DNA from: Nostoc sp.
GTDB taxonomy: Bacteria > Cyanobacteriota > Cyanobacteriia > Cyanobacteriales > Nostocaceae
NCBI RefSeq assembly: GCF_036917815.1
Contig: NZ_JBALEK010000098.1
Span: 1,915-65,914, forward strand
Direction: 5' to 3'
Length of the DNA stretch: 64,000 nucleotides
The position numbers were made by a program, and so were the translations under genes. Positions 5,003 through 20,390 of the stretch are shown here, piece by piece. The notes under the pieces are model-generated. The model saw nothing but the letters and a program-made list of their open reading frames with translations, ran no database searches and was not told the origin of the DNA. Every line of letters begins with the position of its first letter. Within the stretch, counting starts at the first letter, position 1.

Positions 5003-8000
5003 TCAGTTGAGCTTGGGCTTTTTGAAGAAAAAGCGGTAAAACTTAGGCTGACCAAGCTTTTTACGGAATGCTTCCATGTAAATGTAAAATACTGGAGTCA
5101 GATATAGAGTCAATACCTGAGAAAACAGCAATCCCCCAACGATCGCAATTCCCAAAGGACGACGCGCTTCTGAACCAACTCCCGTCCCCAAAGCAATGGG
5201 AAGTGTCCCAATTAAAGCTGCCATCGTCGTCATCATAATCGGGCGGAAGCGAGTCAAGCAAGCGGCATAGATGGCATCATAGGAATTTTTACCTTCCTTT
5301 CGCTGGGCTTCAATAGCAAAGTCCACCAGCATAATGCCGTTTTTCTTGACGATACCCACTAGCAGAATGATGCCAATAAAAGAGTAAAGATTTAAATCAA
5401 CCTGGAAAATCAGCAGCGTCAATAATGCGCCAAAACCCGCCGAAGGTAGACCAGAAAGAATGGTGATTGGGTGAATAAAATCCTCATAAAGGATACCGAG
5501 AATCAGATAGATGACTACAATAGACACCAACAACAGCGCCCCTAAATCGTTGAAGGACTGTTGGAAAGTTTGGGCTGAACCCTGAAAGCTGGGGGTAATT
5601 GTTGATGGTAACAACTCACTGGCTGCTTGCTTGATAGCATCAGTAGCTTGACTGAGAGAGGTTCCTGCGAGGGTGTCAAAAGAGATAGTCGATGAGGGGA
5701 GTTGACCAACGTGAGCAACGGTGAGGGGACCGACATTCTGGGTGATATTAGCGATCGCACTCAGAGGTACTTGTTTTCCAGCACTCGATTGCACATATAG
5801 TAATGATAGGGCACTGGGATCTCGCTGAAACTCCGGTTTCACTTCTAAGATTACATAAAATTGGTCATTTGGGGTATAGATAGTAGAAACCTGGCTGGAA
5901 CCATAGGCAGCACTGAGGGTTTGTTCAACTTGTTGGGCAGTAATCCCAAGAGTGGCAGCTTTGTTATGGTCAATTTGGACTTGAATTTGGGGAGTGCTGA
6001 GTTGTAAATCGCTGTCAACGTCCCGGAGTCCTGGTAGGGTTTTGACTTTATCTAGAAGTTTAGGAACGTATTGGCGCAAGTCTTGTAAATTCAAGCTCTG
6101 CAACGTGAACTGATAAGTAGAATTAGTTTGTTGACCACCGATGGGAATAGCTGGCGGAGAGCGGAGGAATGTCTTAATCCCAATTGTACGTCTCAATTTG
6201 GGGGTTAGCTCTTGAATGATTTCGTCAGCACTGAGTTGACGTTGATCACGTGGCTTGAGCCGAATGGTAATTCGCCCACCGTTGACTGAACCGTTCGGGC
6301 CGCTTGCACCCACAATGGAGTCAACTGCTTCAATATTGGGGTCTTTGCGAATAATCTCAACAACCTTTTGCTGGTGACGCAGCATATCATCAAAAGAAAT
6401 ATCTTGCGCGGCTTTCGTGTTCCCCATCAATTGTCCGGTGTCTTCCGTGGGGATAAATCCTTTGGGAACGATGACAAACAAATAGGCGGTCATTATTAGC
6501 AGAATACCAGAACCAATGAGTGTCATCAAGCGGTATTTTAAGATGGGCTTGAGCGTCCAATCATATCCCCGCAGTAGTAAATCAAATCCCCCTTCTAAAA
6601 ATTGATAGAGCCGATTTGGTCTTTGCTGATGGGGTGAACTTAAGAAACGACTGCACAACATGGGAGTGAGACTGAGGGAAACAAAACCCGAAACCAAAAT
6701 TGCCACAGCGATGGTAACAGCAAATTCATGAAATAATTTACCGATTATGCCACTCATAAACATGATGGGGATGAACACCGCCACCAGGGAGAGGGTCATT
6801 GACAAAATGGTGAAACTGATTTCCTTTGATCCCTTCAATGCTGCCTCTAGGGGAGAATCGCCCATTTCCCGATAACGGACGACATTTTCCAACACCACGA
6901 TCGCATCATCCACGACAAAACCCACGGAAAGGGTCAACGCCATAAGTGAGATGTTGTCTAGGGAGAAGCCCGATAGATACATCACCGCAAAAGTACCAAT
7001 GATGGCTACAGGTAGCGCCAAACTGGGAATCAGCGTCGCCGTGATGTCACGCAAGAATAGGAAAATCACCAAAACAACTAGACAAATCGAGAGAACTAAG
7101 GTAAACTTTACATCGTTGACAGAGGCTCGGATGGTTTGGGAGCGATCGTACATAATCCCCATCTCAATGGATTTGGGAACTTGTTCGCGGAGCGTAGGTA
7201 AAAGTTTCTGAATAGCATCAACAATATTTACAGTGTTGGCACCCGGCTGTGGCTGCACGGCCAGAACAACGGAATGGCGGTCTGTCACCTGGTCATCGTT
7301 ATACAAATTCGAGACTTTGTTATTTTGTTCACTGTCAATTACCTGCCCCAAATCTTGAAGGCGCACGGGCGCACCATTAGCGTAAGTTACAATAAGTTGG
7401 CGATAGCCGGCAGCATCGGTAAGTTGACCATTCGCCTGAATCGTATAATTTTTGAAAGTATCAGAGAGACTGCCCGTTGCTAAATCAACATTTCCCTGTT
7501 GAATAGCAGTTTTTACCTGATTTAGACCAATTCCCCTTGATGCCAACTCTCGCGGGTCAAGCTGGACGCGGACTGCATATTGCTGTTGGCCATAGACCTG
7601 TACCTGAGCAACACCATCAATCATCGAGATCGGCTGACCAACTGTTACCTCTGCGTATTCGTCTACTGTCGAGATTGGCTGTGTCTCAGAATACATGTAG
7701 AGGTAGAGAACCGGTGAGACAGATGGGTTGACTTTGCGATAGGTGGGCGGGTGAGGCATTCCGGCGGGCAGTTGTCCGGCGGCGGCTGAGATGGCTGCCT
7801 GGACATCTTTGGCGGCATCTTCCACTCTCCGGCTAAAGTCAAATTGTAAGGAGATGCTGGTGCTGCCTGTGGAACTGGTGGAATTAAATGAATTGAGTCC
7901 GGCAATTTCGGTAAACTGTCTTTCTAGGGGTGCGGCGACGGAAGATGCCATTGTTTCCGGGGTGGCACCAGGGAGACTAGCGGAGACAGATATAAAAGGA

Positions 8001-8125
8001 TATTCAACGTTGGGTAGGGCACTGATGGGTAATAGGAGATAGCTCATCAGACCGAAGATGAGGATACCCATCATTACCAAGGTGGTCATGACTGGACGAC
8101 GGATGAAGAGTTCTGAAAGGTTCAT
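5003..8125 (-). CDS. RND efflux permease, AcrB/MdtB-C type (1040 aa)
   Basis: Likely start MNLSELFIRRPV at 8125; proton-relay motifs VDDAIVVLEN, VKKNGIM, RFRPIMMTT. Confidence 0.95.
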   Translation of the reverse strand: MNLSELFIRRPVMTTLVMMGILIFGLMSYLLLPISALPNVEYPFISVSASLPGATPETMASSVAAPLERQFTEIAGLNSFNSTSSTGSTSISLQFDFSRRVEDAAKDVQAAISAAAGQLPAGMPHPPTYRKVNPSVSPVLYLYMYSETQPISTVDEYAEVTVGQPISMIDGVAQVQVYGQQQYAVRVQLDPRELASRGIGLNQVKTAIQQGNVDLATGSLSDTFKNYTIQANGQLTDAAGYRQLIVTYANGAPVRLQDLGQVIDSEQNNKVSNLYNDDQVTDRHSVVLAVQPQPGANTVNIVDAIQKLLPTLREQVPKSIEMGIMYDRSQTIRASVNDVKFTLVLSICLVVLVIFLFLRDITATLIPSLALPVAIIGTFAVMYLSGFSLDNISLMALTLSVGFVVDDAIVVLENVVRYREMGDSPLEAALKGSKEISFTILSMTLSLVAVFIPIMFMSGIIGKLFHEFAVTIAVAILVSGFVSLSLTPMLCSRFLSSPHQQRPNRLYQFLEGGFDLLLRGYDWTLKPILKYRLMTLIGSGILLIMTAYLFVIVPKGFIPTEDTGQLMGNTKAAQDISFDDMLRHQQKVVEIIRKDPNIEAVDSIVGASGPNGSVNGGRITIRLKPRDQRQLSADEIIQELTPKLRRTIGIKTFLRSPPAIPIGGQQTNSTYQFTLQSLNLQDLRQYVPKLLDKVKTLPGLRDVDSDLQLSTPQIQVQIDHNKAATLGITAQQVEQTLSAAYGSSQVSTIYTPNDQFYVILEVKPEFQRDPSALSLLYVQSSAGKQVPLSAIANITQNVGPLTVAHVGQLPSSTISFDTLAGTSLSQATDAIKQAASELLPSTITPSFQGSAQTFQQSFNDLGALLLVSIVVIYLILGILYEDFIHPITILSGLPSAGFGALLTLLIFQVDLNLYSFIGIILLVGIVKKNGIMLVDFAIEAQRKEGKNSYDAIYAACLTRFRPIMMTTMAALIGTLPIALGTGVGSEARRPLGIAIVGGLLFSQVLTLYLTPVFYIYMEAFRKKLGQPKFYRFFFKKPKLN

Positions 8126-8174
8126 GGGTTTTGTTATTGAGTTAAGGCTTAACTCTTTGTCAAAGTCAATTTTT

Positions 8175-8355
8175 TTTAAACGAACCACAGAGGCGCAGAG
8201 GGCACTGAGAGAAGAAAGAAATGCTTAACTGAATGTTGGGTTTTAACACAGGAGAGAGGAAAAAAACTGCTTTAATATCTGGTTTCAACACATTTTGTCA
8301 AAAACCCTCTTGATTCTCCTCTCTGTGTCCTCCGCGTCTCTGCGGTTCGTTTAAA
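8175..8355. repeat. Inverted-repeat element between the two RND genes
   Basis: tttaaacgaaccacagagg ... tctctgcggttcgtttaaa terminal IR. Confidence 0.7.
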
Positions 8356-8357
8356 TA

Positions 8358-11300
8358 TCACGATCGCCCGCCTGAAAATGAAAATACCCGCCGGAACTTA
8401 ACTTGACTGAGCTTTTTCCGCCACGATTCCATATATATATAGAACACGGGTGTTAAATAGAGGGTCAATATCTGAGAAAACACTAGCCCACCCACAACTG
8501 CAATACCTAGAGGACGGCGGGATTCGGAACCAGCCCCAAACCCGATCGCAATAGGTAAGGTTCCCATTAATGCTGCCATTGTCGTCATCATAATTGGGCG
8601 GAAGCGCACCAAACAGGCTTGATAAATCGCCTCAGACGGTTTTTTCCCTTCTTCTCGCTGGGCTTCAATTGCAAAATCCACCATCATAATCCCGTTTTTC
8701 TTGACGATGCCCACCAAGAGAATTATGCCGATAAAGGAGTAAACATTCAGTTCGACATGGAATATTATCAGCGTTAACAATGCCCCAAAACCTGCTGAGG
8801 GCAAACCGGAAAGAATCGTAATTGGGTGAATGAAATCCTCATAGAGAACACCCAAAATCAGATAAATTACGAGGATAGCGATCGCTAACAATAAACCCAA
8901 ACTCGGCAGTGAACTTTGAAATACCTGACTTGCACCCTGAAAGCTGGTGCTTATACTGGCAGGAATCACCTGATTAATCACTTTCTCAATCTCTTCGTTG
9001 GCATTTCCCAAGGCCACACCGGGAGCGAGGTTAAAGGAAATGGTGGCGGCGTTCATCCGACCGTTATGATTAACCATTAACGGGCTGACTCCCTGAGATA
9101 GTTTGGCGAATGTCTTCAGAGGTACTGCAACTCCTGTGCTGGAGTTAATGTATAATGCCAACAAAGCATTGATATCTTGCTGAAACTGGGGTGCTAATTC
9201 CAAAATCACCTGATACTCATTGGTGGCTGCATAGATGGTTGATACTTGGTAAGAACCGTAGGCACTTCTCAGGGTATTTTCGATTTGTTGGGCGGTTATA
9301 CCATAAGTTGACGCTTTATCGCGGTCAATGTCAATTTTAATTTGGGAAGCAAACTGTAAATCGCTGTTCACATCCTGGAGTTCCGTCATCTCCTTCATCT
9401 TGATCACAAGTTGGGGAACATACTCCTGTAAGGGTTTGACATCAGAACTCTGGAGTGCAACTTGATAAAGGCCTGTACTTTGTTGGGCGCCAATGGGAAT
9501 CGCTGGGGGATTTTGTAAGAATACTTGGATACCTGGAACAGTGGCAAGTTTGGTTCGCAAATTTTGCACGATTTCGTCAGCCCCAAGTTGGCGTTGCGAT
9601 CGCGGTTTTAACCGAATAAACAAACTACCCGAATTGGCTGCAACTGCTGCCCCACCGCCACTAGCACTGGCTCCCGCCCCAATATTAGAGTTGACTGCAT
9701 CTACATTTGGATCTTGGCGGATCAGGTTAGCAACTGTCTGCTGATGCTTGACAAGATTATCAAAGGATGCATCCTGGGCTGCTTGGGTAACGCCTGTAAT
9801 TTGTCCGGTATCTTGGCTAGGAATAAAGCCTTTGGGAACTACCATCAACAGCCCAACTGTCACCGCAAATAGAAAGACTGATAATATCATCGTGGTACGA
9901 TGATATTTTAAAACTTTTTTGAGACTCCAATCGTACAAACCGAGGAAGCGATCGAAGACATATTCGGAAGCTTGATATAACCGACTTTGACGGGTATGAT
10001 CCACAGGACGCAGAAAACGGCTGCACAACATGGGAGTCAGAGTCAAAGACACAAAACCAGAGACGAGAATTGCCACTGCGATCGTCACAGCAAATTCATG
10101 AAATAATCGTCCCAGCACTTCACTCATGAACAACATGGGGATGAAGACTGCAACTAAGGAAAGGGTCATCGATAGAATTGTAAAACCAATTTCTCTCGAC
10201 CCATTCAACGCCGCTTCTACTGGACGTTCCCCCATTTCGATATGACGGACGATATTTTCTAGCATAACGATCGCATCATCCACTACGAAGCCCACCGAAA
10301 GGGTCAACGCCATCAGCGATAGGTTATCTAGTGAGTATTGCAGCAAATACATCACCGCAAAGGTGCCAATCAGCGAAACAGGTAACGCCAAACTGGGAAT
10401 CACCGTGGCTGAGAGGTTCCGCAAAAAGATGAAAATTACGAAGATAACTAGAGCGATCGTCAAAATCAAGGTAAATCTGACATCATCTACTGAATCTCTA
10501 ATTGACTGAGACGCATCATAAAGAATCCCAATTTCCACGGATGCCGGAATCTGGTCTCGCAATTTCGGGAGCAATTTCGTAATCGTGTCAACAACTTGTA
10601 CCGTATTGGTTCCGGGTTGTCTTTGAATGGTGAGAATAATGGCGCGGGTATTGTTGTACCAACTTGCTACCTTGTCATTTTCTACACTGTCAATAACCCG
10701 ACCGAGTTGATAAAGATAGATGGGCGCACCATCTTTATAAGACACAATCAGCTGACGATAAGCAGCCGCATCTTGGAGTTGCCCGTTAGTTTGGACTGTA
10801 AAATTCTTGTGATTTCCCGAAAGACTACCAGTAGGTAAATCGACGTTACCCTCTTGAATCGCCGTCGCCACCTGATCTAGCCCAATTTGCCGCGTTGCCA
10901 ATTCCTGCGGATCAAGTTGAATTCGAGCCGCATACTTTTGGGAACCGTAGACAGCTACCTGTGCTACCCCATTGATTGTAGATAGCTTTTGTGCCAGATA
11001 AGTCTCGGCATAATTGTCTACTTGGGAAAGCGGCAGAGTGGGAGAGTCTAAGTAAAGGTAGAGAATGGGTTGATCGGCGGGGTTAACCTTACTGTAGGTA
11101 GGAGGATTTGGTAAATCCGTCGCAATTTGCCCCGATGCTCCTGAGATCGCGGCTTGTACATCCTGTGCCGCGTCATCAATGTTCCGACTCAGGTTAAATT
11201 GCAGGGTAATTTGAGTCTGACCCAAGGTGCTAGTTGAGTTGAGCGAATCGAGTCCAGCAATACTAGAAAATTGCTTCTCTAGGGGACGAGCAACCGATGC

Positions 11301-11480
11301 TGCCATTGTTTCGGGGCTAGCTCCCGGTCGGGAAGCGCTTACCTGAATTGTCGGATAATCTACACTTGGTAAATCGCTGATTGGCAGCAAACGATAACTC
11401 ATGAAACCGAAAATCAAAATCGCCGCCATCACCAGAGTCGTCATGATCGGGCGGCGGATAAATGGTTCTGAGAGGTTCAT
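8358..11480 (-). CDS. RND efflux permease, AcrB/MdtB-C type (1040 aa), paralog of 5003-8125
   Basis: Same length and same proton-relay motifs (VDDAIVMLEN, VKKNGIM, RFRPIMMTT); start overlaps the adaptor stop by 4 bp. Confidence 0.95.
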   Translation of the reverse strand: MNLSEPFIRRPIMTTLVMAAILIFGFMSYRLLPISDLPSVDYPTIQVSASRPGASPETMAASVARPLEKQFSSIAGLDSLNSTSTLGQTQITLQFNLSRNIDDAAQDVQAAISGASGQIATDLPNPPTYSKVNPADQPILYLYLDSPTLPLSQVDNYAETYLAQKLSTINGVAQVAVYGSQKYAARIQLDPQELATRQIGLDQVATAIQEGNVDLPTGSLSGNHKNFTVQTNGQLQDAAAYRQLIVSYKDGAPIYLYQLGRVIDSVENDKVASWYNNTRAIILTIQRQPGTNTVQVVDTITKLLPKLRDQIPASVEIGILYDASQSIRDSVDDVRFTLILTIALVIFVIFIFLRNLSATVIPSLALPVSLIGTFAVMYLLQYSLDNLSLMALTLSVGFVVDDAIVMLENIVRHIEMGERPVEAALNGSREIGFTILSMTLSLVAVFIPMLFMSEVLGRLFHEFAVTIAVAILVSGFVSLTLTPMLCSRFLRPVDHTRQSRLYQASEYVFDRFLGLYDWSLKKVLKYHRTTMILSVFLFAVTVGLLMVVPKGFIPSQDTGQITGVTQAAQDASFDNLVKHQQTVANLIRQDPNVDAVNSNIGAGASASGGGAAVAANSGSLFIRLKPRSQRQLGADEIVQNLRTKLATVPGIQVFLQNPPAIPIGAQQSTGLYQVALQSSDVKPLQEYVPQLVIKMKEMTELQDVNSDLQFASQIKIDIDRDKASTYGITAQQIENTLRSAYGSYQVSTIYAATNEYQVILELAPQFQQDINALLALYINSSTGVAVPLKTFAKLSQGVSPLMVNHNGRMNAATISFNLAPGVALGNANEEIEKVINQVIPASISTSFQGASQVFQSSLPSLGLLLAIAILVIYLILGVLYEDFIHPITILSGLPSAGFGALLTLIIFHVELNVYSFIGIILLVGIVKKNGIMMVDFAIEAQREEGKKPSEAIYQACLVRFRPIMMTTMAALMGTLPIAIGFGAGSESRRPLGIAVVGGLVFSQILTLYLTPVFYIYMESWRKKLSQVKFRRVFSFSGGRS

Positions 11481-13102
11481 GAATCACCTCCACTAGATTT
11501 GGGGGATTCTCCCCCTGCCCCCTTTCCTCTTTTTGACTTCGAGGAATTTCCATCGGCATTTGAGTTATTGCCGGCTGTTTTGACGCGGATTTTGCTACCC
11601 GAAACGAGATTCGCTTGCCCATCGGTGACAATTTTATCACCGGGTTGTGGTCCTTTCTCAATCACATCTAGCCCATCAATGGTGCTGCTAACTGTAACTG
11701 GAACATTTTCCACCGTCATGTCTGGCTTGACTACAAAAACAAACTGTCCATCGGGTCCATTCTGCACGGCTTGGGAGGGAACAACTGTTGCATTCGGTTC
11801 TTCAGTCAGCGTTAGGGTTGCGTTGACAAATTGACCAGGAAACAAGTTTTCTTGAGCGTTGTCAAATTGGCCAATCAATTGAATTGTTCCCGTGGTGTTA
11901 TCGACCGTATTATTGACAGATGTCAAAACACCTGGTGTCGAATGACCTTGACTATTGGGGAATGTCACATCTACCTTCAACTTGCCATTTCGCATATACT
12001 TTTGTACCTGGGGTAGATTTGTTTCAGGAATGGAAAAAGCAACTTCAATTGGGCGAATTTGGGTGATGGTAACAAGTGGAGTCGTGCTGCTAGTGCTACC
12101 GGCTGTACTGTTGGTTTGCAGTGCATTCCCCTGAGTCAGCGAAGCACTGCTGTTAGCTTGCACCACATTCCCCTGAGTCACCGAAACATTGCCAGCGCGA
12201 CCATCAATTGGCGCATAAATTTTGGCGTAAGATAATTGCACCTTGGCGTTGTCTAATGCTCCTTGGTCGGAACGAACAACAGCTTGAGCATTAGCGATCG
12301 CTGCTTCATCGCCCTTGACAACTGCACCAGCATTAGTCAGTGCCACTTGATCGCTTTTCAAAACAGCCTGAACATTAGCGATCGCTTCTCGATCTGCTTG
12401 TAGGGTTGCTTGAGCGGTGCGGATGTTTTCAACGTATTGCTGTACTGTATCCAAGCTGATCGCGCCCTTCTTGTACAATGCACCATAGCGATCGCTCTGT
12501 CCCTGAGCAAAATTTACTTGTGCTTCATCCTTAATCACAGTCGCCTGGGCTTGTCGCACAGAGGCTTGGTCTTTGATTAAGGTGGCCCTAGCTTGGTCTA
12601 CCTGACCCAAATCTCTAGCTAATGCAGATCTAGCTTGTTCTACCGAGGCTTGGTCTTTGGCGACAGTGCCTTCAGCTTGCTGGATTGCAGCAGTTTGCGA
12701 TCGGTCATCTATAGTAAACAAAAGTTGTCCCTTTTTCACATCTTGACCTTTCTTGAAATAAACTCCAATAATCCGTCCAGTGGCTTCGGGCGTAATCGAT
12801 ACCGTAGATCCTGATTGCACATTACCGATGGCCTGCAATTGTACCGGAACCGTTTTTTGTGTCACCATTGCCACGGATACAGGTGTCACTTGCTGCTTAT
12901 TACGATCGGCTTTTCCCGTTTTCTCTGTCTTAGCTGCACCCGCATGGATACCCAAAAAAACCAACCCACCCAGCACCATCACGCCCAAAATTACCCAAAT
13001 AATCTTTTTTGGCGATCGCTTTTTTGGCGATCGTGGTAGCTCCGATTCTATAATATTCTCAGTCAAACTCTCGTTACTCTCGTTAGGAATTTCATGGTTC
13101 AT
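11477..13102 (-). CDS. RND periplasmic adaptor (MdtA/HlyD-like) with extended alpha-hairpin
   Basis: N-terminal TM helix, GQDVKKGQLLFTID, IYAPIDG, LFPGQFV; 14-aa helical repeats. Confidence 0.92.
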   Translation of the reverse strand: MNHEIPNESNESLTENIIESELPRSPKKRSPKKIIWVILGVMVLGGLVFLGIHAGAAKTEKTGKADRNKQQVTPVSVAMVTQKTVPVQLQAIGNVQSGSTVSITPEATGRIIGVYFKKGQDVKKGQLLFTIDDRSQTAAIQQAEGTVAKDQASVEQARSALARDLGQVDQARATLIKDQASVRQAQATVIKDEAQVNFAQGQSDRYGALYKKGAISLDTVQQYVENIRTAQATLQADREAIANVQAVLKSDQVALTNAGAVVKGDEAAIANAQAVVRSDQGALDNAKVQLSYAKIYAPIDGRAGNVSVTQGNVVQANSSASLTQGNALQTNSTAGSTSSTTPLVTITQIRPIEVAFSIPETNLPQVQKYMRNGKLKVDVTFPNSQGHSTPGVLTSVNNTVDNTTGTIQLIGQFDNAQENLFPGQFVNATLTLTEEPNATVVPSQAVQNGPDGQFVFVVKPDMTVENVPVTVSSTIDGLDVIEKGPQPGDKIVTDGQANLVSGSKIRVKTAGNNSNADGNSSKSKRGKGAGGESPKSSGGDS

Positions 13103-13314: not shown

Positions 13315-13650
13315 ATACCTACTTATTATAAACAGCCAAATTCTTTTCCCATTTCAACTCGTGTTTATCCAAATTTGATTTGAAGCAGTACAAAAATATT
13401 ACACCTCAAACTTTGACAAAACAATGATCTTTAGACAAAAAATCCCATAAATTAAAGAGGAGATCAGAGTATAATTACAACAACAACTACCAGAAGTAAT
13501 CCGATATGAATAATTAGTTTTTTCTGGTTTGCTCGATGCGCCTTGTAATTTAAATCAAACCCATAATATTGCTCAATATCACTTAGGGAATCATAGTCTA
13601 AAGGTTTCATCATTTTAAATCCTTTGATATTGACTGGGATTTTTGCTGAT

Positions 13651-14628
13651 TTATGACTTACTTAGCTGCCGATGTAGAATTTTTAGAGCTTGTTTTTCTA
13701 TTTGCCGGACTCGTTCACGACTAATACCCATACGCTGACCAATCTGTTCTAAAGAAAGTTCATTCCCGTCTGTCAAACCAAAGTGCAAATTTAATATTTC
13801 TTGTTGTTGGCGAGACAGATTTGACAATAAAATTTCCACATCTTCATTGAGAGATTCGTCGGTGTTATAGGCATTACCAGAACTGCAATCTTCGATTAAA
13901 TCTTGTAATTGTATATCTTTGTCCGCTCCAATCCGAATATCTAGAGAGATAGTTTGACGAGCCAAAAGTAGAAATTCTCGAATCTGACTAGGCTTTAAAG
14001 AAAGTGCATCAGCAATTTCGTTACTGGTGGGAATGCGACCCAGTTTTTGAGACAATTCTCGCTGAACACGCTTAATTTTGTTTAACTTCTCATTGATGTG
14101 AATGGGTAATCTAATCGCGCGTCCTTGCTGGGCGATCGCCCTAGTAATTGCTTGACGAATCCACCAGTAAGCGTAAGTTGAAAATCTGTATCCTAAAGCC
14201 GGATTGAATTTTTCAACCCCTCTCTCCAAACCCAAGTTACCTTCTTGAATTAAGTCCATAAGCTCTAAGTTCCGTCTCTGATATTGCTTGGCGATTGACA
14301 CCACCAGCCGGAGATTAGATGCCATCATTTTCTGCTTGGCTTTTTTCCCTTGATTTAGCTGCTCAAGTAGTTCCTGTTCACTTAACTGCATCTGGTTAGC
14401 CCATTCTGACACTGTGGGTGTACGATTTAATTCAACAGCCAGTTTTTCTGATTCAGCAAGTATTGTCATCATCTGCTGAATTTGTTGGGCAAAAAGAATT
14501 TCTTCCTCCTGGGTTAACAGAGGTATCCGGCCAATTTCTTGAAGATAAGCACGGACTGTATCAGTTGGAGATTGAGATGCTTTGCTTGTGTTACTAGCTT
14601 TGGTATCTGGGAATGTTAAGTTACTCAT
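13651..14628 (-). CDS. Group 2 (RpoD/SigA-family) sigma factor
   Basis: Region 1.2 DTVRAYLQEIGRIPLL, region 2 DLIQEGNLGL..FSTYAYWWIRQAI, region 4 SRERVRQIE; no region 1.1; GGAGG RBS. Confidence 0.93.
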   Translation of the reverse strand: MSNLTFPDTKASNTSKASQSPTDTVRAYLQEIGRIPLLTQEEEILFAQQIQQMMTILAESEKLAVELNRTPTVSEWANQMQLSEQELLEQLNQGKKAKQKMMASNLRLVVSIAKQYQRRNLELMDLIQEGNLGLERGVEKFNPALGYRFSTYAYWWIRQAITRAIAQQGRAIRLPIHINEKLNKIKRVQRELSQKLGRIPTSNEIADALSLKPSQIREFLLLARQTISLDIRIGADKDIQLQDLIEDCSSGNAYNTDESLNEDVEILLSNLSRQQQEILNLHFGLTDGNELSLEQIGQRMGISRERVRQIEKQALKILHRQLSKS

Positions 14629-14648: not shown

Positions 14649-15557
14649 TTAATTAGGGTATTTTGTATTCAAGAAGAACCGCAGATAGTGACTAGATGAA
14701 CCATAAAAGTTTTTATAAAAAAACCAGGTATCAAGCACTAATTCTAAAAGAGCAATCAACACCCAAATTGCTAGAGAAACAATTACAGGTAGGCTGAGAT
14801 CGGGAAATTCCCTTTGCAAATCGATAATGCCAAATAACAGTAAAAACAGGAGTGAAACTCCCAGAAGAAAGGACAACTTGACGATGGCAAGAATGAAACG
14901 GCTAATCTCCAAGATGCGATTGTAAAGCCGGGAAAATCTCTCCAATATTTCTTCCATGTTATTGATCACAAGTGCAATTTGCTGTCGGTGCAGATGGGTA
15001 GCTAAGGAGGGCTGTTGCTGTATTTGCATCCATTCATGTTCATTCTTGAAATTATCTAAAAGCTTGTCCAAATGTAGCCCCTGGGAGCTAGTTGTCCAGA
15101 TGGGGAAATCCTTTAAATGCAAGGGGACTAAATAGTTAATCAGCGCTATCAGAGTTTCATTAAAATCACTGAGTTCGGGGGGAAGAGACTGAGTTAGACG
15201 AATGAGTTGGTCAATCTGAATCTGAAGTGTATGGTAGTCCTCATGCCGCCTTTGAGCGATCAACTGACTAGTAAAGGTGAGGAAAACAATTAACACCCCC
15301 AATAAAGCAGCTAGAGACTGGGATACAGCAGAAAAGAATTCAATGGCCACCTGTTTAGGTACTGTCAGCCAGGGGGCATTTTCCCGCATTGAAAAAACCA
15401 GGGTGACAACAAATACAATCCCGATGATCGCTAGCTGATGGCGGGTAATAGTAATGATGATTATCCGCACCAAAGGAGTGTTACTGAGTTGAACCAGGAT
15501 TTGCAAACCTGGGACTGGTTCACAATTTTGAAGTCGTTGGGCTTTGCGGGTTGACAT
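14649..15557 (-). CDS. Hypothetical membrane protein (about 2 TM - helical domain - 2 TM)
   Basis: 302-aa ORF with 45-bp and 20-bp gaps to its neighbours; hydrophobic stretches at ~42-57, 72-99, 220-246 and 255-280. Confidence 0.75.
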   Translation of the reverse strand: MSTRKAQRLQNCEPVPGLQILVQLSNTPLVRIIIITITRHQLAIIGIVFVVTLVFSMRENAPWLTVPKQVAIEFFSAVSQSLAALLGVLIVFLTFTSQLIAQRRHEDYHTLQIQIDQLIRLTQSLPPELSDFNETLIALINYLVPLHLKDFPIWTTSSQGLHLDKLLDNFKNEHEWMQIQQQPSLATHLHRQQIALVINNMEEILERFSRLYNRILEISRFILAIVKLSFLLGVSLLFLLLFGIIDLQREFPDLSLPVIVSLAIWVLIALLELVLDTWFFYKNFYGSSSHYLRFFLNTKYPN

Positions 15558-15602: not shown

Positions 15603-16883
15603 TTATTTGCCACCCTGCAAACTCAGATGATTGTCCCCAGACTGAATCAATTTGCTCAAGTCAGCAACGGCGCTAGCATACTGAGGATCAGCTAATGTCG
15701 CCACAGTTCGGTTTTGCAATAATGCTTTCTGTTGTGCCTCGCTTAACTCCACGGTAATATCTGGGGCAATGCCGACATGATTGATATCTCGACCTTTGGG
15801 TGTGTAGTATTTTGCGATCGTTAGTTTCAGCGCCGAACCATCATCGAGTGGCTCTACAGCTTGAACTAAACCCTTACCGAAGGTGCGAGTCCCGACTAAT
15901 GTGGCGCGACGATCATCTTGCAGCGCTCCCGAAAGAATTTCGCTGGCGCTGGCAGATCCCTTATCGACTAGTATCACTAAGGGTTTGTTGGTGAGAGGAT
16001 GTCCCGACGCATTGTAGTTTTCCTTAACTTTGTCTCGATTTACCAAAGACACGATCGCACCTTGCTTCAACCACATACTGGCAATTTGCAAACTCGCATC
16101 TAGCAGTCCACCTGGATCGGAACGCAGATCCAGAACGTAGCCTTGTACTTGCTGTTTTTCTAATGCTTGAATTGCCTGACGCATCTCTGCGGGGGCTGTT
16201 TCAGTAAACTCTGGCAAACGAATGTAACCAATCTTCCCTGCTTCCGTTGTTTGCGTGTTATAAGTTACAGGATGGATAGCAATATTGGCGCGGGTCAGGT
16301 TGAAATTTTGGGATTGCTTACCCCGTTGAATCGTCAGTACTACCTTGGTTCCCACCGGGCCAAGAATCCGCTTCACGGCATCCTCAATTTTCATTCCCCG
16401 AGTTATTTTACCGTTAATTTGGACAATTACATCGTCCGGCAAAATACCTGCTTTAAAAGCGGGTGTTCCTTCAATGGGGGCGATAACGGTTAAAGCTTTA
16501 GTTTTTTCATTTTCTGCTAGTTCCAGCCCTACACCACTGAGGTTGCCAGAAAGATCGCTATTGAGGGCTTGGTATTCCTGGGGGTCGAAAAACTCAGTGT
16601 AGCGATCGCCTAATTTCCCCACCATTTCTTGAATCGCCCCATAAGCCTCTTTCTTGGAACTATAGGAACGGCTAAGATATTGCTGTCGAATCGCTTTCCA
16701 ATCTTGATGGTTAAAGCTGACATCAACATAATTTTTATCTAAAATTTGCCACACCTCATCCACCAGCTTTTGGGGGCTAGGTTGGGTTATACCTAGAGCT
16801 TTGGAAGCGTAGATACCAGTTACTGCAAGGATTGCTGCCATAGCAGCGATTTCTATCTTGACGATGAATTTTTGCTTGAACAT
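15603..16883 (-). CDS. S41 C-terminal processing protease (CtpA/Prc family)
   Basis: Signal peptide, PDZ (GVGL), DLRSDPGGLL, catalytic SASASE and TFGKGLVQ. Confidence 0.93.
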   Translation of the reverse strand: MFKQKFIVKIEIAAMAAILAVTGIYASKALGITQPSPQKLVDEVWQILDKNYVDVSFNHQDWKAIRQQYLSRSYSSKKEAYGAIQEMVGKLGDRYTEFFDPQEYQALNSDLSGNLSGVGLELAENEKTKALTVIAPIEGTPAFKAGILPDDVIVQINGKITRGMKIEDAVKRILGPVGTKVVLTIQRGKQSQNFNLTRANIAIHPVTYNTQTTEAGKIGYIRLPEFTETAPAEMRQAIQALEKQQVQGYVLDLRSDPGGLLDASLQIASMWLKQGAIVSLVNRDKVKENYNASGHPLTNKPLVILVDKGSASASEILSGALQDDRRATLVGTRTFGKGLVQAVEPLDDGSALKLTIAKYYTPKGRDINHVGIAPDITVELSEAQQKALLQNRTVATLADPQYASAVADLSKLIQSGDNHLSLQGGK

Positions 16884-17131: not shown

Positions 17132-17515
17132 CTAGGAATTATCTGGAGATTGCCCTTTACGGTGGGGATAGGCAGTCTTAAAAATCTCCTGAATTTTAGT
17201 CTTTTGTTCAGGAGTCAGATTCAGGCTCAACACTGCTTTACGCATTTTTTCACCTTGTTGCAATTTCGCTGACAATTCTTTTACCTGATCTGGGGTCAAA
17301 ACTGCCTCAATTTGCTTGCGAACTGCTTCGCGTTTTTGAGCGCGTTCCGGCGTATTCGATGGAGAAGGATTTGTCGTAGAAGTGTCAGATACCTTTGTCC
17401 CAGAGTCGCCTCCTTGAGACACATCTGGAGACTTAGAACTGCTGCAACCTGTCATTCCTACGATGAAGATAGTTGCAAATAGAAGCGTTGGTAAAATTAT
17501 CTGTTTTTTAATCAT
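17132..17515 (-). CDS. Lipoprotein with LTxxQ motifs (Spy/CpxP-like)
   Basis: Lipobox MTGC; motifs LTPDQ and LTPEQ. Confidence 0.75.
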   Translation of the reverse strand: MIKKQIILPTLLFATIFIVGMTGCSSSKSPDVSQGGDSGTKVSDTSTTNPSPSNTPERAQKREAVRKQIEAVLTPDQVKELSAKLQQGEKMRKAVLSLNLTPEQKTKIQEIFKTAYPHRKGQSPDNS

Positions 17516-17804
17516 TTACTTCTCTTGTTTTTGTTGTTCCGACTATCAAGACTTACACAAACAATAGCCTAAATTCTGATTTTCAGTAGGGGAAATTCAT
17601 GAATTAACCCTACTATCCAGTTACATCAGCTAATCTTAGAAGTTGGAATAGGTTTGTGCATGAGCTAGAATTCCTAACCTGGCTAGTAAAAAAGTACTAA
17701 AGTTATTGTGACTTTTTTCCTAACTTAGAAATCGTTAATCAGTCGGAAAGACTCTATCAATAGTAGAGACAGATTCGCTATATAGGAAGAAGAGTTTCAG
17801 GGAG

Positions 17805-18330
17805 CATCTCAATGAGTGCAAATATACCTGCCGATTAGAAATCGCGGCTATACAAACTTTCCTCCGCGCAGACGGACTCAAGGAATTGGCAACCGACCTT
17901 CGTGGGTTTTGTCTGTATAGCCAAGCCACTCTGACTTTTCACGGGATCTGGAAAACCTCTCTCCTGCAAGGCTACGGTGTACACACAAGTTGAATTACCC
18001 CCCTTAATCCCCCCGATATATTGGCTACGGTGTACACACAAGTCGAAAAAAGCTCGATTTCTCATTCCCATTGTTCTCTCGTTCTCTCGTTACCATGAAG
18101 AGCATGGGAATGGCTGATTGGGGGCTACCGCTTCCAGTCAAGACATTGAGCCAGAGACTCAATGAATGCATTCCCAGGCGGCAGCCCAGGAAGGAGTAAA
18201 GCCTTATCAAGTTAGGTTTTTAGGACTTGTGCGTACACCGTAGCTTAGAAAGGGGGAAAAAAGAAATCTAGTTCCCTCCCCAATATATCGGGGAGGGTTA
18301 GGGTGGGGTGTTCGCATAGCTTCTCCCCCT
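17805..18330. repeat. Composite of partial MITE ends and palindromic repeats
   Basis: gggagcatctca end (family of 32071), ctgacttttcacg end (family of 32763), two gctacggtgtacacacaagt copies, relative of the 13192 element. Confidence 0.7.
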
Positions 18331-18467: not shown

Positions 18468-19739
18468 GTGAAAATACCTATGGTTCTGTTAGAAAGGCCA
18501 TTGAGTTGGAACAGTTCTATGGTTCGCTTGACCTACCCATCCTTTCGTCTGTTGCTTTACCTAGAGTGGCTGTTATTAGCCACGGCAATGTTCATGGAAG
18601 TTCTGCTGCCCTTTGAGCTGTCCTGGTCGTTGCTGCTACGAGTTGTCGTGATTGCAACCTTCAGCTTGATGGGCTTGAGACTACCAATGGTTAAGCTGGA
18701 AACCAAATTATTTTATACAGCCCTGGAATTCATTTTAATTTTGCTGCCAGCGACTCAACATGGCTTATCTAGTCGCTCGGTTTTTCTGCTGTGCCTAGTA
18801 CTGGTGATGCGGAGTTGTCTGGTCTTTAAGCAATCGGGACAGTTGGTTGTCTTGGGTTTATCTCTGCTTACTTATGGAACACTGCTTTTGTCAAGACCCA
18901 TTGTACCTGAGAATTTTATGCCAGATAAGCTGATCGCCATGTCCTGGGATTGGCGATTAAGTAATATATTATTGTTTAGCTTAACGTTAGTATTCGCTTT
19001 ATTATTAATTAACGCTTTGCTTGCAGAGCGGCAAAGTCGAGAGCAGTTAGAAATTGCCCATCAGCAATTAGAGATGATCAATCAACAACTGTGTCAGTAC
19101 GCGCTACGGATTGAAGATCAGGCAACTTTGCAGGAACGCAACCGAATTGCCCGCGAAATTCATGACGGGTTGGGACACACTCTCGCCGCCCAAACTATTC
19201 AGATTAATAATACTCTGTTGTTCTGGCAATCAAATAATGACAAAGCATTGACATTTCTCAAACAGGCAAAAGAACAGGGGGCTGAGGCGCTGCTGGAAAT
19301 TCGGCGATCGCTTTCTGTTTTGCGTTCAAATCCTTTGCAAGGGCAATCTCTCAAATCAGCCATTGAAAAACTGTTGACAGATTTTCAGCAAACCACAGGT
19401 ATTGAACCGTCCTGTAAAATTGATGTCCCGTACACTTTACCAACAGAAGTAAACACTGCCCTGTACCGCATTGTGCAAGAATCGCTGACAAATATTTGCA
19501 AACACGCCCAAGCGACGAGTGTCACTGTTGAAATAGTGGCTCACTCTGGGATGATTCATCTGTCAGTGGAAGATAATGGAAAAGGGTTTAACCCCACTCA
19601 AAATACAACTGGGTTTGGGTTACAAGGGATGCGAGAACGGTCGGTTGCACTAGGCGCCCAGTTGAATCTTCATAGTCAACTAGGAACAGGTTGCTGTATT
19701 TCTGTTTCTTTGCCACTCTCAAAGCTGTTGGTGTTTTAG
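18468..19739 (+). CDS. Sensor histidine kinase, HisKA_3 (NarQ/DesK/LiaS-type)
   Basis: About 5 N-terminal TMs, ERNRIAREIHDGLGH H-box, LYRIVQESLTN, DNGKGF, GFGLQGMRER; exact start uncertain. Confidence 0.93.
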   Translation: MKIPMVLLERPLSWNSSMVRLTYPSFRLLLYLEWLLLATAMFMEVLLPFELSWSLLLRVVVIATFSLMGLRLPMVKLETKLFYTALEFILILLPATQHGLSSRSVFLLCLVLVMRSCLVFKQSGQLVVLGLSLLTYGTLLLSRPIVPENFMPDKLIAMSWDWRLSNILLFSLTLVFALLLINALLAERQSREQLEIAHQQLEMINQQLCQYALRIEDQATLQERNRIAREIHDGLGHTLAAQTIQINNTLLFWQSNNDKALTFLKQAKEQGAEALLEIRRSLSVLRSNPLQGQSLKSAIEKLLTDFQQTTGIEPSCKIDVPYTLPTEVNTALYRIVQESLTNICKHAQATSVTVEIVAHSGMIHLSVEDNGKGFNPTQNTTGFGLQGMRERSVALGAQLNLHSQLGTGCCISVSLPLSKLLVF

Positions 19740-19742
19740 CTT

Positions 19743-20390
19743 ATGATTCAGATTTTATTAGTTGACGATCAGCATCTCATTCGCCAGGGACTTAAGAGTA
19801 TGCTGGAGTCGAATGCAGAGATGCAGGTAATCGGTGAGGCGGAGAATGGGCAACGGGCACTCGAACAAATTGCCGCACTACAACCCGATATTGTGCTAAT
19901 GGATATTCGGATGCCCGTAATGGATGGAGTGGCCACAACAAAAGCGATCGCTCAACAATATCCTGACATTAAGGTTCTCGTCCTCACCACCTTCGATGAT
20001 GATGAGTATGTTTTCCAGGCGATGCGGCTGGGTGCAAAGGGCTATTTGCTCAAGGATACCGAACCAGATGAACTAATGTTGGCAATTCGATCTGTCTACA
20101 AGGGACAAACCCTACTCGGCCCAGGATTGTTTGAGAAAGCACTCACGCCTATTGCCGCACCTGTCGCGTCTGTGCAAACTCCTCCAGAATTGGCGCAACT
20201 CACACCCAGAGAATTAGATGTATTACGGTTAATTGCTTGTGGAGCCAATAACCGTGAAATTGCTGAATCGCTGTTTCTTTCAGAAAATACTGTTAAAAAT
20301 TATGTGACAAATATTCTGAGTCGCTTGAGTTTACGCGATCGCACTCAAGCCGCTTTATTTGCCCATTCGTTGTTTGGTGGACTTAAATAA
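19743..20390 (+). CDS. NarL/LuxR-family response regulator
   Basis: REC (LLVDD, D in LMDIRMP, KD) plus LuxR HTH LTPRELDVL..SENTVKNYV; 3 bp after the kinase. Confidence 0.95.
   Translation: MIQILLVDDQHLIRQGLKSMLESNAEMQVIGEAENGQRALEQIAALQPDIVLMDIRMPVMDGVATTKAIAQQYPDIKVLVLTTFDDDEYVFQAMRLGAKGYLLKDTEPDELMLAIRSVYKGQTLLGPGLFEKALTPIAAPVASVQTPPELAQLTPRELDVLRLIACGANNREIAESLFLSENTVKNYVTNILSRLSLRDRTQAALFAHSLFGGLK

What the first reader, a model, noticed from the sequence alone, without database searches (positions are those of the whole stretch)
5003..20390. Candidate envelope-stress system: two-component pair, Spy/CpxP-like lipoprotein, S41 protease, unknown membrane protein, group 2 sigma factor and MdtABC-type pump
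Seen: seven co-oriented genes (LTxxQ lipoprotein, S41 protease, 4-TM protein, sigma, adaptor, RND, RND) face a divergent HisKA_3 kinase and LuxR regulator. Known: enterobacterial BaeSR co-regulates spy and mdtABC, and CpxP modulates its kinase. Inference: this is a functionally analogous cyanobacterial module built from a different kinase class with its own sigma-70 factor as a second tier. I know of no description of this combination; it is my best candidate for an undescribed system here.
Basis: partly seen in the sequence, partly recalled or inferred. Interest (0 to 1): 0.78.

Follow-up and report, generated by a model that had tools for sequence, protein, structure and literature searches.

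The report
Two-component-controlled efflux and envelope operon
A sensor-regulator pair, a small periplasmic lipoprotein and a three-part drug-type efflux pump, joined by a strongly conserved control sequence, form a unit kept across filamentous cyanobacteria and apparently undescribed, while the sigma factor and unknown membrane protein are late additions that are often lost.

Summary
The nine genes are present exactly as described, in a Nostoc chromosome.

Orthologues of the six-helix HisKA_3 kinase and NarL-type regulator lie back to back with an MdtABC-like pump in about 36 of 41 informative non-Nostoc species, from Pseudanabaena to Scytonema. An LTXXQ lipoprotein usually lies between them.

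The shared spacer holds a roughly 130-nt block, always pointing at the lipoprotein/pump side. It has an invariant TAGGAAAAAAGTCA, an inverted partner, further TAGGAA sites and a -10-like TAAGAT. It predicts no RNA fold. A strict pattern found it 103 times in 185,579 genomes, and every record listed is cyanobacterial.

The rest of the model is not supported as a core design. The S41 protease joined only in Nostocales. The sigma factor and the 302-aa membrane protein occur only in Nostoc and close relatives. Within Nostoc, sigma was lost at least 7 times, the membrane protein at least 5 and the pump at least 4.

My best reading is one regulator-activated operon for envelope or xenobiotic stress, with sigma as an optional output. 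No transcript data could be obtained. This is a new variant of a known kind, of moderate interest.

The parts
19743..20390 (+). NarL/LuxR-type response regulator (REC + GerE HTH), predicted activator of the divergent operon
   Evidence: Pfam Response_reg 1.6e-31 and GerE 2e-19. The D9/D10/D54/T82/K104 pattern is present. Identity is 93-100% across Nostoc and 77-86% in other orders, always next to the kinase. dN/dS is 0.11.
18468..19739 (+). HisKA_3 sensor kinase with about six membrane helices and no sizeable periplasmic domain (intramembrane-sensing type)
   Evidence: Pfam HisKA_3 and HATPase_c. H-box REIHDGLGH and the DNGKGF and GFGLQGM boxes are present. No family covers residues 1-200. Orthologues at 64% identity or more occur in Nostocales, Oscillatoriales, Leptolyngbyales and Pseudanabaenales.
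17625..17790 (-). Conserved cis-regulatory block: upstream TAGAG, invariant TAGGAAAAAAGTCAC (17708-17722), inverted partner ACTTTTTTACTA (17684-17695), TAGGAA (17671-17676), TCATGC at the -35 position and -10-like TAAGAT (17633-17638). Predicted transcription start is near 17626.
   Evidence: A 7-mer screen found the core in 22 of 22 diverse spacers against about 2.5 expected. Alignment A2 shows invariant columns from Pseudanabaena to Nostoc. RNAalifold predicts 0 pairs. There is exactly one copy in the window. 146 fetched loci hold exactly one copy. A strict pattern gave 103 hits in genome contigs, and every record listed is cyanobacterial. The promoter assignment is my inference.
17132..17515 (-). 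Small lipoprotein with two LTxxQ motifs: lipobox, a disordered Ser/Thr/Pro linker, and a conserved 65-aa helical domain
   Evidence: Pfam LTXXQ scores 28.3 bits against a cut-off of 24.3. Alignment A3 covers 16 taxa, with C24 and both motifs invariant. The profile matches Spy in PDB at E 9e-6. The AF2 model has pLDDT above 90 for residues 56-115. Foldseek gives no significant match.
15603..16883 (-). S41 C-terminal processing protease with PDZ domain and an N-terminal membrane or signal helix; a paralogue of CtpC
   Evidence: Peptidase_S41 1.3e-60 and PDZ. TIGR00225 scores 379 against a cut-off of 218.6. CtpC scores 581, below its cut-off of 665. Ser in GSASASE and Lys in TFGKG are present. 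It is in the cluster only in Nostocales.
14649..15557 (-). 302-aa protein of unknown family: four membrane helices with a four-helix bundle between TM2 and TM3, predicted to be cytoplasmic
   Evidence: No Pfam, NCBIfam or PADLOC hit. The AF2 model has pLDDT 70.7 and is all-helical. Foldseek against PDB gives nothing better than E 0.09. Only 56 representative clusters exist among 1.84 billion proteins. Remote members carry an N-terminal zinc finger resembling DUF5763. It stands alone in Leptolyngbya, Trichocoleus, Scytonema and Rhizonema.
13651..14628 (-). Lineage-specific group 2 sigma-70 factor, 20 bp downstream of the 302-aa gene
   Evidence: Regions 1.2, 2, 3 and 4 are present and TIGR02997 is met. 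It forms its own orthologue group in Nostoc, Tolypothrix, Calothrix NIES-4101 and Rhizonema; the next paralogues are about 65% identical. It has the highest dN/dS in the cluster, 0.21. It is deleted or decayed in at least 7 Nostoc lineages.
13464..13613 (-). 49-aa ORF with a C-terminal membrane helix in the sigma-adaptor spacer; status uncertain
   Evidence: It is intact in the window, L054, L059 (Brunnivagina), L042 and L023. It carries stop codons in many other Nostoc loci.
11477..13102 (-). Periplasmic adaptor (membrane fusion protein) of the RND pump
   Evidence: TIGR01730 RND_mfp scores 228.9 against a cut-off of 94.9. MdtA/MuxA scores 237, below its cut-off of 391. It overlaps the next gene by 4 bp.
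8358..11480 (-). RND permease 1 (slightly closer to MdtB/MuxB)
   Evidence: ACR_tran over its full length. MdtB/MuxB scores 1148 and MdtC 1114, both below their cut-offs. D401/D402, K928 and R961 are present. dN/dS is 0.065.
5003..8188 (-). RND permease 2 (slightly closer to MdtC)
   Evidence: ACR_tran over its full length. MdtC scores 1118 and MdtB 1111. D427/D428, K949 and R982 are present. It is 63% identical to permease 1.

Best explanation
The locus is a two-component-controlled envelope and efflux operon that is conserved in filamentous cyanobacteria.

Proposed mechanism:
1. A six-helix HisKA_3 kinase with almost no periplasmic part senses a disturbance in or at the membrane and phosphorylates its NarL-type regulator. 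(Inferred.)
2. The regulator binds repeated TAGGAA(AAAAGT) sites in the conserved 130-nt block. It activates a promoter that has a good -10 (TAAGAT) but no canonical -35. It probably also acts on the kinase gene on the other side of the spacer. (Inferred. The block and its fixed orientation are shown.)
3. That promoter drives the LTXXQ lipoprotein and the genes behind it, ending in an adaptor and two RND permeases that would form an MdtABC-like heteromeric pump using an outer-membrane channel encoded elsewhere. (Co-orientation and the lack of any other conserved promoter are shown. Co-transcription is inferred.)

The ancestral unit is kinase-regulator / LTXXQ / pump. The S41 protease was added in Nostocales. 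The group 2 sigma factor and the 302-aa membrane protein were added in Nostoc and its close relatives. Where sigma is present it is an optional extra output of the system, and it is not needed to express the pump.
For: - Gene content and intact active sites.
- Kinase orthologues at 64% identity or more lie back to back with adaptor-RND-RND in about 36 of 41 informative non-Nostoc species, including 23 Microcoleus, Pseudanabaena, Tumidithrix, Leptolyngbyales, Phormidesmis, Chroococcidiopsis, Brasilonema and Scytonema. The LTXXQ gene usually lies between them.
- Two of the exceptions retain a remnant of the pump next to the kinase (L115; low-coverage tblastn traces in L115 and L144).
- Kinase paralogues below 52% identity have neither the pump nor the block.
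- The 130-nt block is conserved from Pseudanabaena to Nostoc and is in the same orientation relative to the genes in all 22 diverse spacers examined.
- The block has no consensus RNA structure.
- It is single-copy per locus. It was found 103 times in genome contigs, where I estimate fewer than 1 by chance (596 Gb, both strands, 5 spacings, 22 fixed bases), and every record listed is cyanobacterial.
- No other conserved element lies upstream of the adaptor gene.
- The same block precedes S41-sigma in Calothrix NIES-4101 and S41 in Calothrix UHCC 0171, with no kinase adjacent.
- Sigma, the 302-aa gene and the pump are lost independently, while the kinase, regulator, LTXXQ and S41 genes are intact wherever the sequenced stretch covers them.
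- All intact genes are under purifying selection.
Against: - There are no transcript or binding data.
- Binding of the regulator to the block is inferred only from adjacency.
- The 548-bp sigma-adaptor spacer and the 248-bp LTXXQ-S41 spacer could hold unconserved promoters or terminators, so the pump may be transcribed separately in Nostoc.
- The consensus promoter and terminator scan was no better than shuffled sequence.
- The inducing signal and the pump substrates are unknown.
- The loci were retrieved with the kinase or the 302-aa protein as bait, so loss of those two genes cannot be scored.
Confidence: 0.6

Rival explanations
1. One reading: a two-tier cascade in which the regulator induces the sigma factor, and sigma-containing RNA polymerase is then required to transcribe the pump and other envelope genes.
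For: - Sigma lies between the regulated promoter and the pump.
- A 548-bp spacer with no conserved operator precedes the adaptor gene.
- Sigma sits behind the same cis block in Calothrix NIES-4101.
- Intact sigma copies are under purifying selection, with dN/dS 0.21.
Against: - Sigma is absent from the orthologous cluster in Scytonema, Microcoleus, Pseudanabaena and others, where the pump is still linked to the kinase.
- Within Nostoc, sigma is deleted or decayed at least 7 times while the pump stays intact.
- The sigma-adaptor spacer is not conserved even among Nostoc species.
Confidence: 0.1
2. A proteolytic switch. The 302-aa membrane protein holds the group 2 sigma factor at the membrane as an anti-sigma factor, and the S41 protease cleaves it on envelope stress. 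This resembles Prc or CtpB acting on MucA or the SpoIVFA complex.
For: - S41, the 302-aa gene and sigma are spaced by only 45 and 20 bp.
- The helical bundle of the 302-aa protein is predicted to be cytoplasmic.
- S41-sigma adjacency recurs in Calothrix NIES-4101 and Rhizonema PD37.
- Another first-stage note (e1-5279682) suggested the same idea.
Against: - Relatives of the 302-aa protein at about 60% identity stand alone, with no sigma or S41 nearby.
- Sigma persists where the 302-aa gene is lost (PCC 73102, L120, L121, L158). The 302-aa gene stays intact where sigma is lost (L025, L031, L045, L047 and others).
- No anti-sigma domain or fold was detected.
- Only two short loops would face the periplasm for the protease to reach.
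Confidence: 0.1
3. The unit is a dedicated exporter for an endogenous product, such as a lipid, glycolipid, pigment or secondary metabolite. The kinase would sense substrate load in the membrane. It would not be a general envelope-stress or drug response.
For: - The kinase is of the intramembrane-sensing type.
- The system is confined to filamentous cyanobacteria.
- RND pumps of cyanobacteria are known to export endogenous compounds (my own knowledge).
Against: - The LTXXQ and S41 partners point to protein quality control in the periplasm, not to export of a metabolite.
- No biosynthetic genes are conserved next to the cluster.
Confidence: 0.15
4. Adjacency without shared control. The two-component pair regulates only itself or distant genes, and the pump is constitutive.
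For: - There are no expression data.
- Large unconserved spacers precede the adaptor gene in several lineages.
Against: - The divergent arrangement with a fixed-orientation conserved block persists across orders whose surrounding genes differ completely.
- Synteny of unrelated genes would not survive that depth of divergence.
Confidence: 0.05

Closest known systems
BaeSR regulon of Escherichia coli (mdtABCD-baeSR, spy, acrD)
   Same: A two-component system is linked to a pump with one adaptor and two different RND permeases, and to an LTXXQ-motif periplasmic protein. In both cases the outer-membrane channel is encoded elsewhere.
   Different: - BaeS has a HisKA domain and a periplasmic sensor, and BaeR is of the OmpR type. 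Here the kinase is HisKA_3 with six membrane helices, and the regulator is of the NarL type.
- baeSR lies at the end of the mdt operon and spy is unlinked. Here the pair is divergent and the LTXXQ gene leads the operon.
- The LTXXQ protein here is a lipoprotein with a 65-aa domain.
- The pump proteins score below the MdtB, MdtC and MdtA equivalog cut-offs.
LiaFSR / VraSR cell-envelope stress systems of Firmicutes
   Same: An intramembrane-sensing HisKA_3 kinase is paired with a NarL-type regulator. LiaS and MadRS are among the weak NCBIfam matches. Autoregulation is likely.
   Different: There is no LiaF-like partner. The targets differ (RND pump, LTXXQ protein, S41 protease). The kinase has six membrane helices where LiaS has two. 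The operator sequence is unrelated.
Cpx response (CpxAR, CpxP, DegP, Spy)
   Same: An LTXXQ protein and a periplasmic protease are co-induced outputs of a two-component system. CpxP feeds back on its kinase, which is a possible role for the lipoprotein here.
   Different: The protease is an S41 type with a Ser/Lys dyad, not an HtrA type. The kinase has no periplasmic domain for a CpxP-like protein to bind. No homology between the regulators goes beyond the superfamily level.
S41 proteases in sigma-factor signalling (Prc with MucA/AlgU in Pseudomonas; CtpB in the Bacillus sigma-K pathway)
   Same: An S41 protease gene lies directly next to a sigma factor gene, with a membrane protein between them.
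   Different: Those systems act on ECF or sporulation sigma factors through known anti-sigma or protease complexes. Here sigma is a group 2 sigma-70, the membrane protein has no anti-sigma domain, and the three genes are lost independently of each other.
SigG/SapG envelope-stress system of Nostoc punctiforme
   Same: It is a sigma-factor-based response to envelope stress in the same genus (mentioned in PMC6495340; the details are from my own knowledge).
   Different: SigG is a group 4 (ECF) sigma with a cognate anti-sigma factor and no linked two-component pair or pump. A similar trio of ECF sigma, anti-sigma and an LTXXQ-like gene was seen by chance in L052.

Membership tests
MdtABC/MuxABC-type heteromeric RND pump | One adaptor gene followed by two paralogous RND permease genes in one orientation | tested here: met
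   Adaptor 11477-13102, then permeases 8358-11480 and 5003-8188. The permeases are 63% identical to each other.
MdtABC/MuxABC-type heteromeric RND pump | Scores above the NCBIfam equivalog cut-offs for MdtA, MdtB/MuxB and MdtC | tested here: not met
   MdtB/MuxB scores 1148 against 1584, MdtC 1118 against 1774, and MdtA/MuxA 237 against 391. The subfamily model RND_permease_2 scores 1194 and 1221 against 1250. These are the closest families, but the proteins are not equivalogs.
MdtABC/MuxABC-type heteromeric RND pump | Proton-relay residues (Asp-Asp in TM4, Lys in TM10, Arg in TM11) present | tested here: met
   VVDDAIV, KKNGIM and RFRPIMMT are present in both permeases.
MdtABC/MuxABC-type heteromeric RND pump | The two permeases assemble into one heterotrimer | not testable with these tools
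   This needs co-purification or a structure.
Spy/CpxP (LTXXQ) periplasmic protein family | Pfam LTXXQ at or above the gathering score, with two LTxxQ motifs | tested here: met
   28.3 bits against 24.3. LTPDQ is at residue 73 and LTPEQ at residue 100. The profile of 16 orthologues matches Spy chains at E 9e-6.
Spy/CpxP (LTXXQ) periplasmic protein family | Spy equivalog score; cradle-shaped long-helix fold | tested here: not met
   NCBIfam Spy scores 22 against 174. The AF2 model of the 65-aa domain is confident, but Foldseek finds no Spy or CpxP match (best E 3.4). The two motifs align to Spy in swapped order. The monomer model cannot show a dimer cradle.
S41 C-terminal processing peptidase | S41 domain with Ser/Lys dyad and a PDZ domain | tested here: met
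   Peptidase_S41 1.3e-60 and PDZ_6 1.2e-10. TIGR00225 scores 379 against 218.6. GSASASE and TFGKG are present.
Cyanobacterial CtpC | NCBIfam CtpC model cut-off | tested here: not met
   581 against 665. It is a paralogue of CtpA, CtpB and CtpC.
Group 2 (non-essential primary-like) sigma-70 factor | Regions 1.2, 2, 3 and 4 present, cyanobacterial RpoD-like model met, no long region 1.1 | tested here: met
   All four Pfam regions are found. TIGR02997 scores 413 against 384.5. The length is 325 aa.
NarL-class two-component system | HisKA_3 + HATPase_c kinase, and a REC + GerE regulator with the phospho-acceptor Asp | tested here: met
BaeSR | HisKA kinase with a periplasmic sensor and an OmpR-type winged-helix regulator | tested here: not met
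   The kinase is HisKA_3 and the regulator carries a GerE domain. The resemblance is in function only.
Membrane-bound anti-sigma factor (for the 302-aa protein) | A recognisable anti-sigma domain or fold, and constant pairing with its sigma factor | tested here: not met
   No family hit and no fold match. The protein occurs without sigma, and sigma occurs without it.

The most novel reading that the evidence does not exclude
In Nostoc and its close relatives the ancient kinase-pump operon has captured a three-gene proteolytic switch. The S41 protease would cleave the 302-aa membrane protein and so release a dedicated group 2 sigma factor. One membrane signal would then both induce the pump and reprogramme RNA polymerase. 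This would be the first regulated-proteolysis control of a group 2 sigma-70 factor.
Probability: 0.1. Interest if true: 0.8.

Novelty: new variant of a known kind. Interest (0 to 1): 0.5.

Why it matters
Little is known about how cyanobacteria sense and answer damage to their cell envelope or exposure to toxic compounds. To my knowledge, no regulator of a cyanobacterial multidrug-type RND pump has been defined.

This locus offers a concrete, testable regulon:
- a specific kinase-regulator pair;
- a 130-nt operator-promoter conserved across orders;
- defined outputs: a periplasmic LTXXQ lipoprotein, a protease, a pump and, in some lineages, a sigma factor.

The cluster is present in the genetically tractable Nostoc punctiforme PCC 73102. 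The natural gene-loss variants among lichen-associated Nostoc act as ready-made knockouts. It also shows how a group 2 sigma factor can be recruited into an existing operon and discarded again.

Tried and rejected
- A structured RNA or riboswitch in the conserved spacer block: RNAalifold predicts no pairs, and Rfam finds nothing there.
- My first candidate site, TTCTAA-N-TTAG: it is only part of the larger block, and its other window matches lie inside coiled-coil genes.
- A second operator before S41, sigma or the adaptor gene: none was found.
- Consensus promoter and terminator scans: no better than shuffled sequence.
- A fold-based function for the 302-aa protein: there are only generic helical-bundle hits, and no Pfam, NCBIfam or PADLOC family.
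- A plasmid origin, or identity with the plasmid-borne sigma genes of Anabaena PCC 7120: the 302-aa protein matches only one Nostoc megaplasmid record.
- Literature on the locus, including guessed Npun locus tags: nothing was found.
- A leader peptide starting at the conserved TCATG: the frame is not conserved. This is my own reading of alignment A2, not a computed result.

Full report
The window comes from a Nostoc chromosome. Its closest relative among the fetched loci is the Nostoc MAG P3068 bin 7 (L054), at 92-98% nucleotide identity over the region.

ORF listing and family scans confirm all nine genes at the stated coordinates:
- two full-length RND permeases: 5003-8188 and 8358-11480;
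- an adaptor: 11477-13102;
- a 325-aa sigma-70 with regions 1.2, 2, 3 and 4: 13651-14628;
- a 302-aa protein with no family: 14649-15557;
- an S41/PDZ protease: 15603-16883;
- a 127-aa lipoprotein with two LTxxQ motifs: 17132-17515;
- on the other strand, a HisKA_3 kinase (18468-19739) and a REC-GerE regulator (19743-20390).

The S41 Ser/Lys dyad, the kinase H-box, the regulator's Asp54 and the proton-relay residues of both permeases are all intact.

The spacing between the seven co-oriented genes is uneven. The gaps are 248 bp after the lipoprotein gene, 45 and 20 bp within S41 / 302-aa gene / sigma, 548 bp before the adaptor, a 4-bp overlap of adaptor and first permease, and 169 bp between the permeases.

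**Synteny within Nostoc.**
Using the 302-aa protein as bait gave 61 loci. Most carry all nine genes in the same order, as does Tolypothrix NIES-4075. These are close relatives, however, and the informative part is the variation among them.
- Sigma has an internal deletion in L022.
- It is reduced to 5' remnants in L034 and L061.
- It is absent in L025, L031, L040, L045, L046 and L048.
- Sigma and the pump are both absent in L037, L047, L049, L050 and Dendronalium (L052). The pump alone is absent in L008.
- The kinase-based retrieval added cases where the 302-aa gene is lost but sigma is kept (L120, L121, L158), and cases where both are lost (L110, L116).
- In the model strain N. punctiforme PCC 73102 the 302-aa gene is a frameshifted remnant covering residues 157-302.

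I built a tree from the regulator, kinase and S41 genes. On it these states fall in separate branches, which implies at least 7 losses of sigma, at least 5 of the 302-aa gene and at least 4 of the pump.

Intact copies of all genes are under purifying selection. dN/dS runs from 0.065 for the permeases, through 0.11 (regulator), 0.14 (302-aa protein) and 0.15 (S41, kinase), to 0.21 for sigma, the highest in the cluster.

**Synteny beyond Nostoc separates core from additions.**
Relatives of the 302-aa protein at about 60% identity stand alone in Leptolyngbya, Trichocoleus, a Scytonema HK-05 plasmid and Rhizonema. None has a protease, sigma, two-component pair or pump nearby.

The kinase gives the opposite picture. 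Orthologues at 64% identity or more sit back to back with adaptor-RND-RND in the following:
- 23 Microcoleus species;
- Lyngbya CCAP 1446/10, Pseudanabaena frigida and Tumidithrix;
- a Leptolyngbyales MAG, Phormidesmis and a Chroococcidiopsis MAG;
- Iningainema, Brasilonema and Scytonema HK-05.

By my count this is about 36 of 41 informative non-Nostoc species. An orthologue of the lipoprotein usually lies between kinase and pump.

The exceptions look secondary. In Brasilonema UFV-L1 a fragment of an RND C-terminus still lies next to the kinase. Scytonema tolypothrichoides retains only low-coverage tblastn traces of the permeases. Calothrix NIES-4071 and NIES-4105 keep only S41.

Scytonema HK-05 has lipoprotein-S41-adaptor-RND-RND with no 302-aa gene and no sigma. 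Kinase paralogues below 52% identity have no pump nearby.

The history I infer has three stages:
1. an ancient unit of kinase-regulator / lipoprotein / pump;
2. S41 added in Nostocales;
3. sigma and the 302-aa gene added between S41 and the adaptor in Nostoc, Tolypothrix, Aulosira and Brunnivagina.

**A conserved control region.**
The shortest divergent spacers are 220-285 bp.

A k-mer screen of 22 taxonomically spread spacers found AGGAAAAAAGTC-type words in all 22, against about 2.5 expected. Aligning them shows a block of about 130 nt with invariant columns from Pseudanabaena to Nostoc. Window coordinates on the minus strand are:
- TAGAG: 17756-17752;
- TAGGAAAAAAGTCAC: 17722-17708;
- an inverted partner ACTTTTTTACTA, 15 nt further on: 17695-17684;
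- a third TAGGAA: 17676-17671;
- TCATGC: 17663-17658;
- a -10-like hexamer with an invariant TA..AT (TAAGAT): 17638-17633.

If transcription starts near 17626, the repeats lie at about -128, -90, -63 and -48, and TCATGC occupies the -35 position. This is the layout of an activator-dependent promoter. That reading is my inference.

In all 22 aligned spacers the block points toward the lipoprotein, S41 or adaptor gene, whichever comes first. RNAalifold finds no consensus pairs. The right arm of the inverted repeat varies without compensating changes in the left arm, so this is a DNA element and not an RNA structure.

The window contains one copy only. Of the fetched loci, 146 have exactly one copy. 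The 29 loci without one are loci that carry only the 302-aa gene, kinase-paralogue loci, truncated or short contigs, a slightly divergent variant (Kovacikia) and the Rhizonema S41-sigma locus.

A strict pattern, TAGGAAAAAAGTCA-N12-16-CTTTTTNAC, matched 103 stretches in the 185,579-genome collection, and every record listed is cyanobacterial. I estimate fewer than one match by chance.

No comparable conserved element lies upstream of the adaptor gene.

**Sigma and S41 as outputs.**
Sigma forms its own orthologue group in Nostoc, Tolypothrix, Calothrix NIES-4101 and Rhizonema. The next paralogues are about 65% identical.

In Calothrix NIES-4101 and Rhizonema PD37, an orthologous S41 (75-81% identity) is followed directly by the orthologous sigma, with no kinase, 302-aa gene or pump nearby. 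In Calothrix NIES-4101 the full cis block lies upstream of that pair, next to an IS transposase. Calothrix UHCC 0171 has the block, a remnant of the lipoprotein signal peptide, and S41.

Two Leptolyngbya genomes carry a second, partial copy of the block beside a 44-47% identical S41-like gene.

The protease, and sigma where present, therefore appear to belong to the same regulon. The repeated losses of sigma with the pump left intact, together with the absence of sigma from most lineages that have the system, argue against sigma being a required second tier.

**The two poorly understood proteins.**

The lipoprotein is conserved across orders. It has a lipobox, a Ser/Thr/Pro linker of variable length, and a 65-aa domain carrying both LTxxQ motifs.
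- It passes the Pfam LTXXQ threshold.
- Its profile matches Spy chains at E 9e-6, with the two motifs in swapped order.
- The domain is modelled confidently as four short helices.
- Foldseek does not retrieve Spy or CpxP.

I therefore call it an LTXXQ-motif protein and do not claim the Spy fold for it.

The 302-aa protein is modelled as all-helical, with pLDDT 70.7. It has four membrane helices and a four-helix bundle continuous with TM2 and TM3.
- It has no significant structural match.
- It belongs to a family of only 56 representative clusters among 1.84 billion proteins.
- Remote members begin with a Cys-rich zinc finger resembling DUF5763. This places the N-terminus, and hence the bundle, in the cytoplasm.

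Its role is unknown. An anti-sigma role is not excluded, but the independent distribution of the two genes counts against it.

**Mechanism and comparison.**
My best reading, at 0.6 confidence, has three steps.
1. An intramembrane-sensing kinase phosphorylates the NarL-type regulator.
2. The regulator binds the TAGGAA repeats and activates the conserved promoter.
3. A transcript runs from the lipoprotein gene through the added genes into an MdtABC-like pump.

Shown: gene content, deep synteny, the block and its orientation, and the gain and loss pattern. Inferred: regulator binding, co-transcription, the signal, and the envelope or xenobiotic role.

The unit works like BaeSR-spy-mdtABC and shares kinase and regulator classes with LiaSR-type systems. 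It is a member of neither. The regulator and kinase classes differ from BaeSR, the pump proteins miss the MdtA, MdtB and MdtC equivalog cut-offs, and there is no LiaF.

I found no paper describing it.

**Limits.**
I therefore have no transcript evidence and could not search the window's own genome for further copies of the block.

Noticed in passing
window 20546-22109: The TnpB (OrfB_IS605/Cas12f-like) element next to the regulator gene is a recent insertion. In the closest relative, L054, the flanks join directly: window 20390 meets window 22102.
   Followed up: partly
window 8172-8358; L068 1630-2303; L066 16818-17815: The spacer between the two permease genes is an insertion hot spot. In the window it is a long hairpin that weakly matches plant miRNA precursor models (44 bits). 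In Scytonema HK-05 it holds a PIN toxin-antitoxin pair. In Tolypothrix it holds an ADP-ribosyltransferase Tse2-like gene plus a 174-aa ORF. Its length varies from about 0.1 to 1.5 kb among Nostoc species.
   Followed up: partly
window 5049-5517 versus 8395-8878: The 3' ends of the two permease genes are 77-78% identical at the nucleotide level, against about 66% for the rest. This suggests gene conversion between the paralogues. An earlier scan note on another genome (e1-2694324) reported the same mosaic.
   Followed up: partly
window 13464-13613 (-): A 49-aa ORF with a C-terminal membrane helix lies just downstream of sigma. It is intact in the window, L054, L042, L023 and Brunnivagina (L059), but carries stop codons in many Nostoc loci.
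   Followed up: partly
L052 12436-13874: In Dendronalium, where sigma and the pump are missing, the downstream region carries a predicted ECF-type sigma, a 113-aa ORF and a 157-aa protein containing 'LNLTPQ'. From the translations this looks like a separate trio of ECF sigma, anti-sigma and LTXXQ-like gene. It was not checked with family models.
   Followed up: no
L228 3960-4142 and L220 about 7041-7328: Two Leptolyngbya genomes have a second, truncated copy of the cis block: the upstream half and the inverted repeat only. It faces an S41-like protease gene (44-47% identity), which suggests the left half of the block also controls the divergent gene.
   Followed up: partly
window 13230-13320 and 18150-18200: Both large spacers contain similar GC-rich repeat pieces (for example ...cctgggaatgc...). 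They look like short dispersed Nostoc repeats filling the non-conserved parts of the spacers.
   Followed up: no
P0119, P0122, P0128, P0135 (remote relatives of the 302-aa protein): Remote family members carry an N-terminal CxGxTxxGxxC...C..HH zinc finger. It matches DUF5763 just below threshold and, in one case, zf-TRM13_CCCH. The Nostoc protein lacks it.
   Followed up: partly
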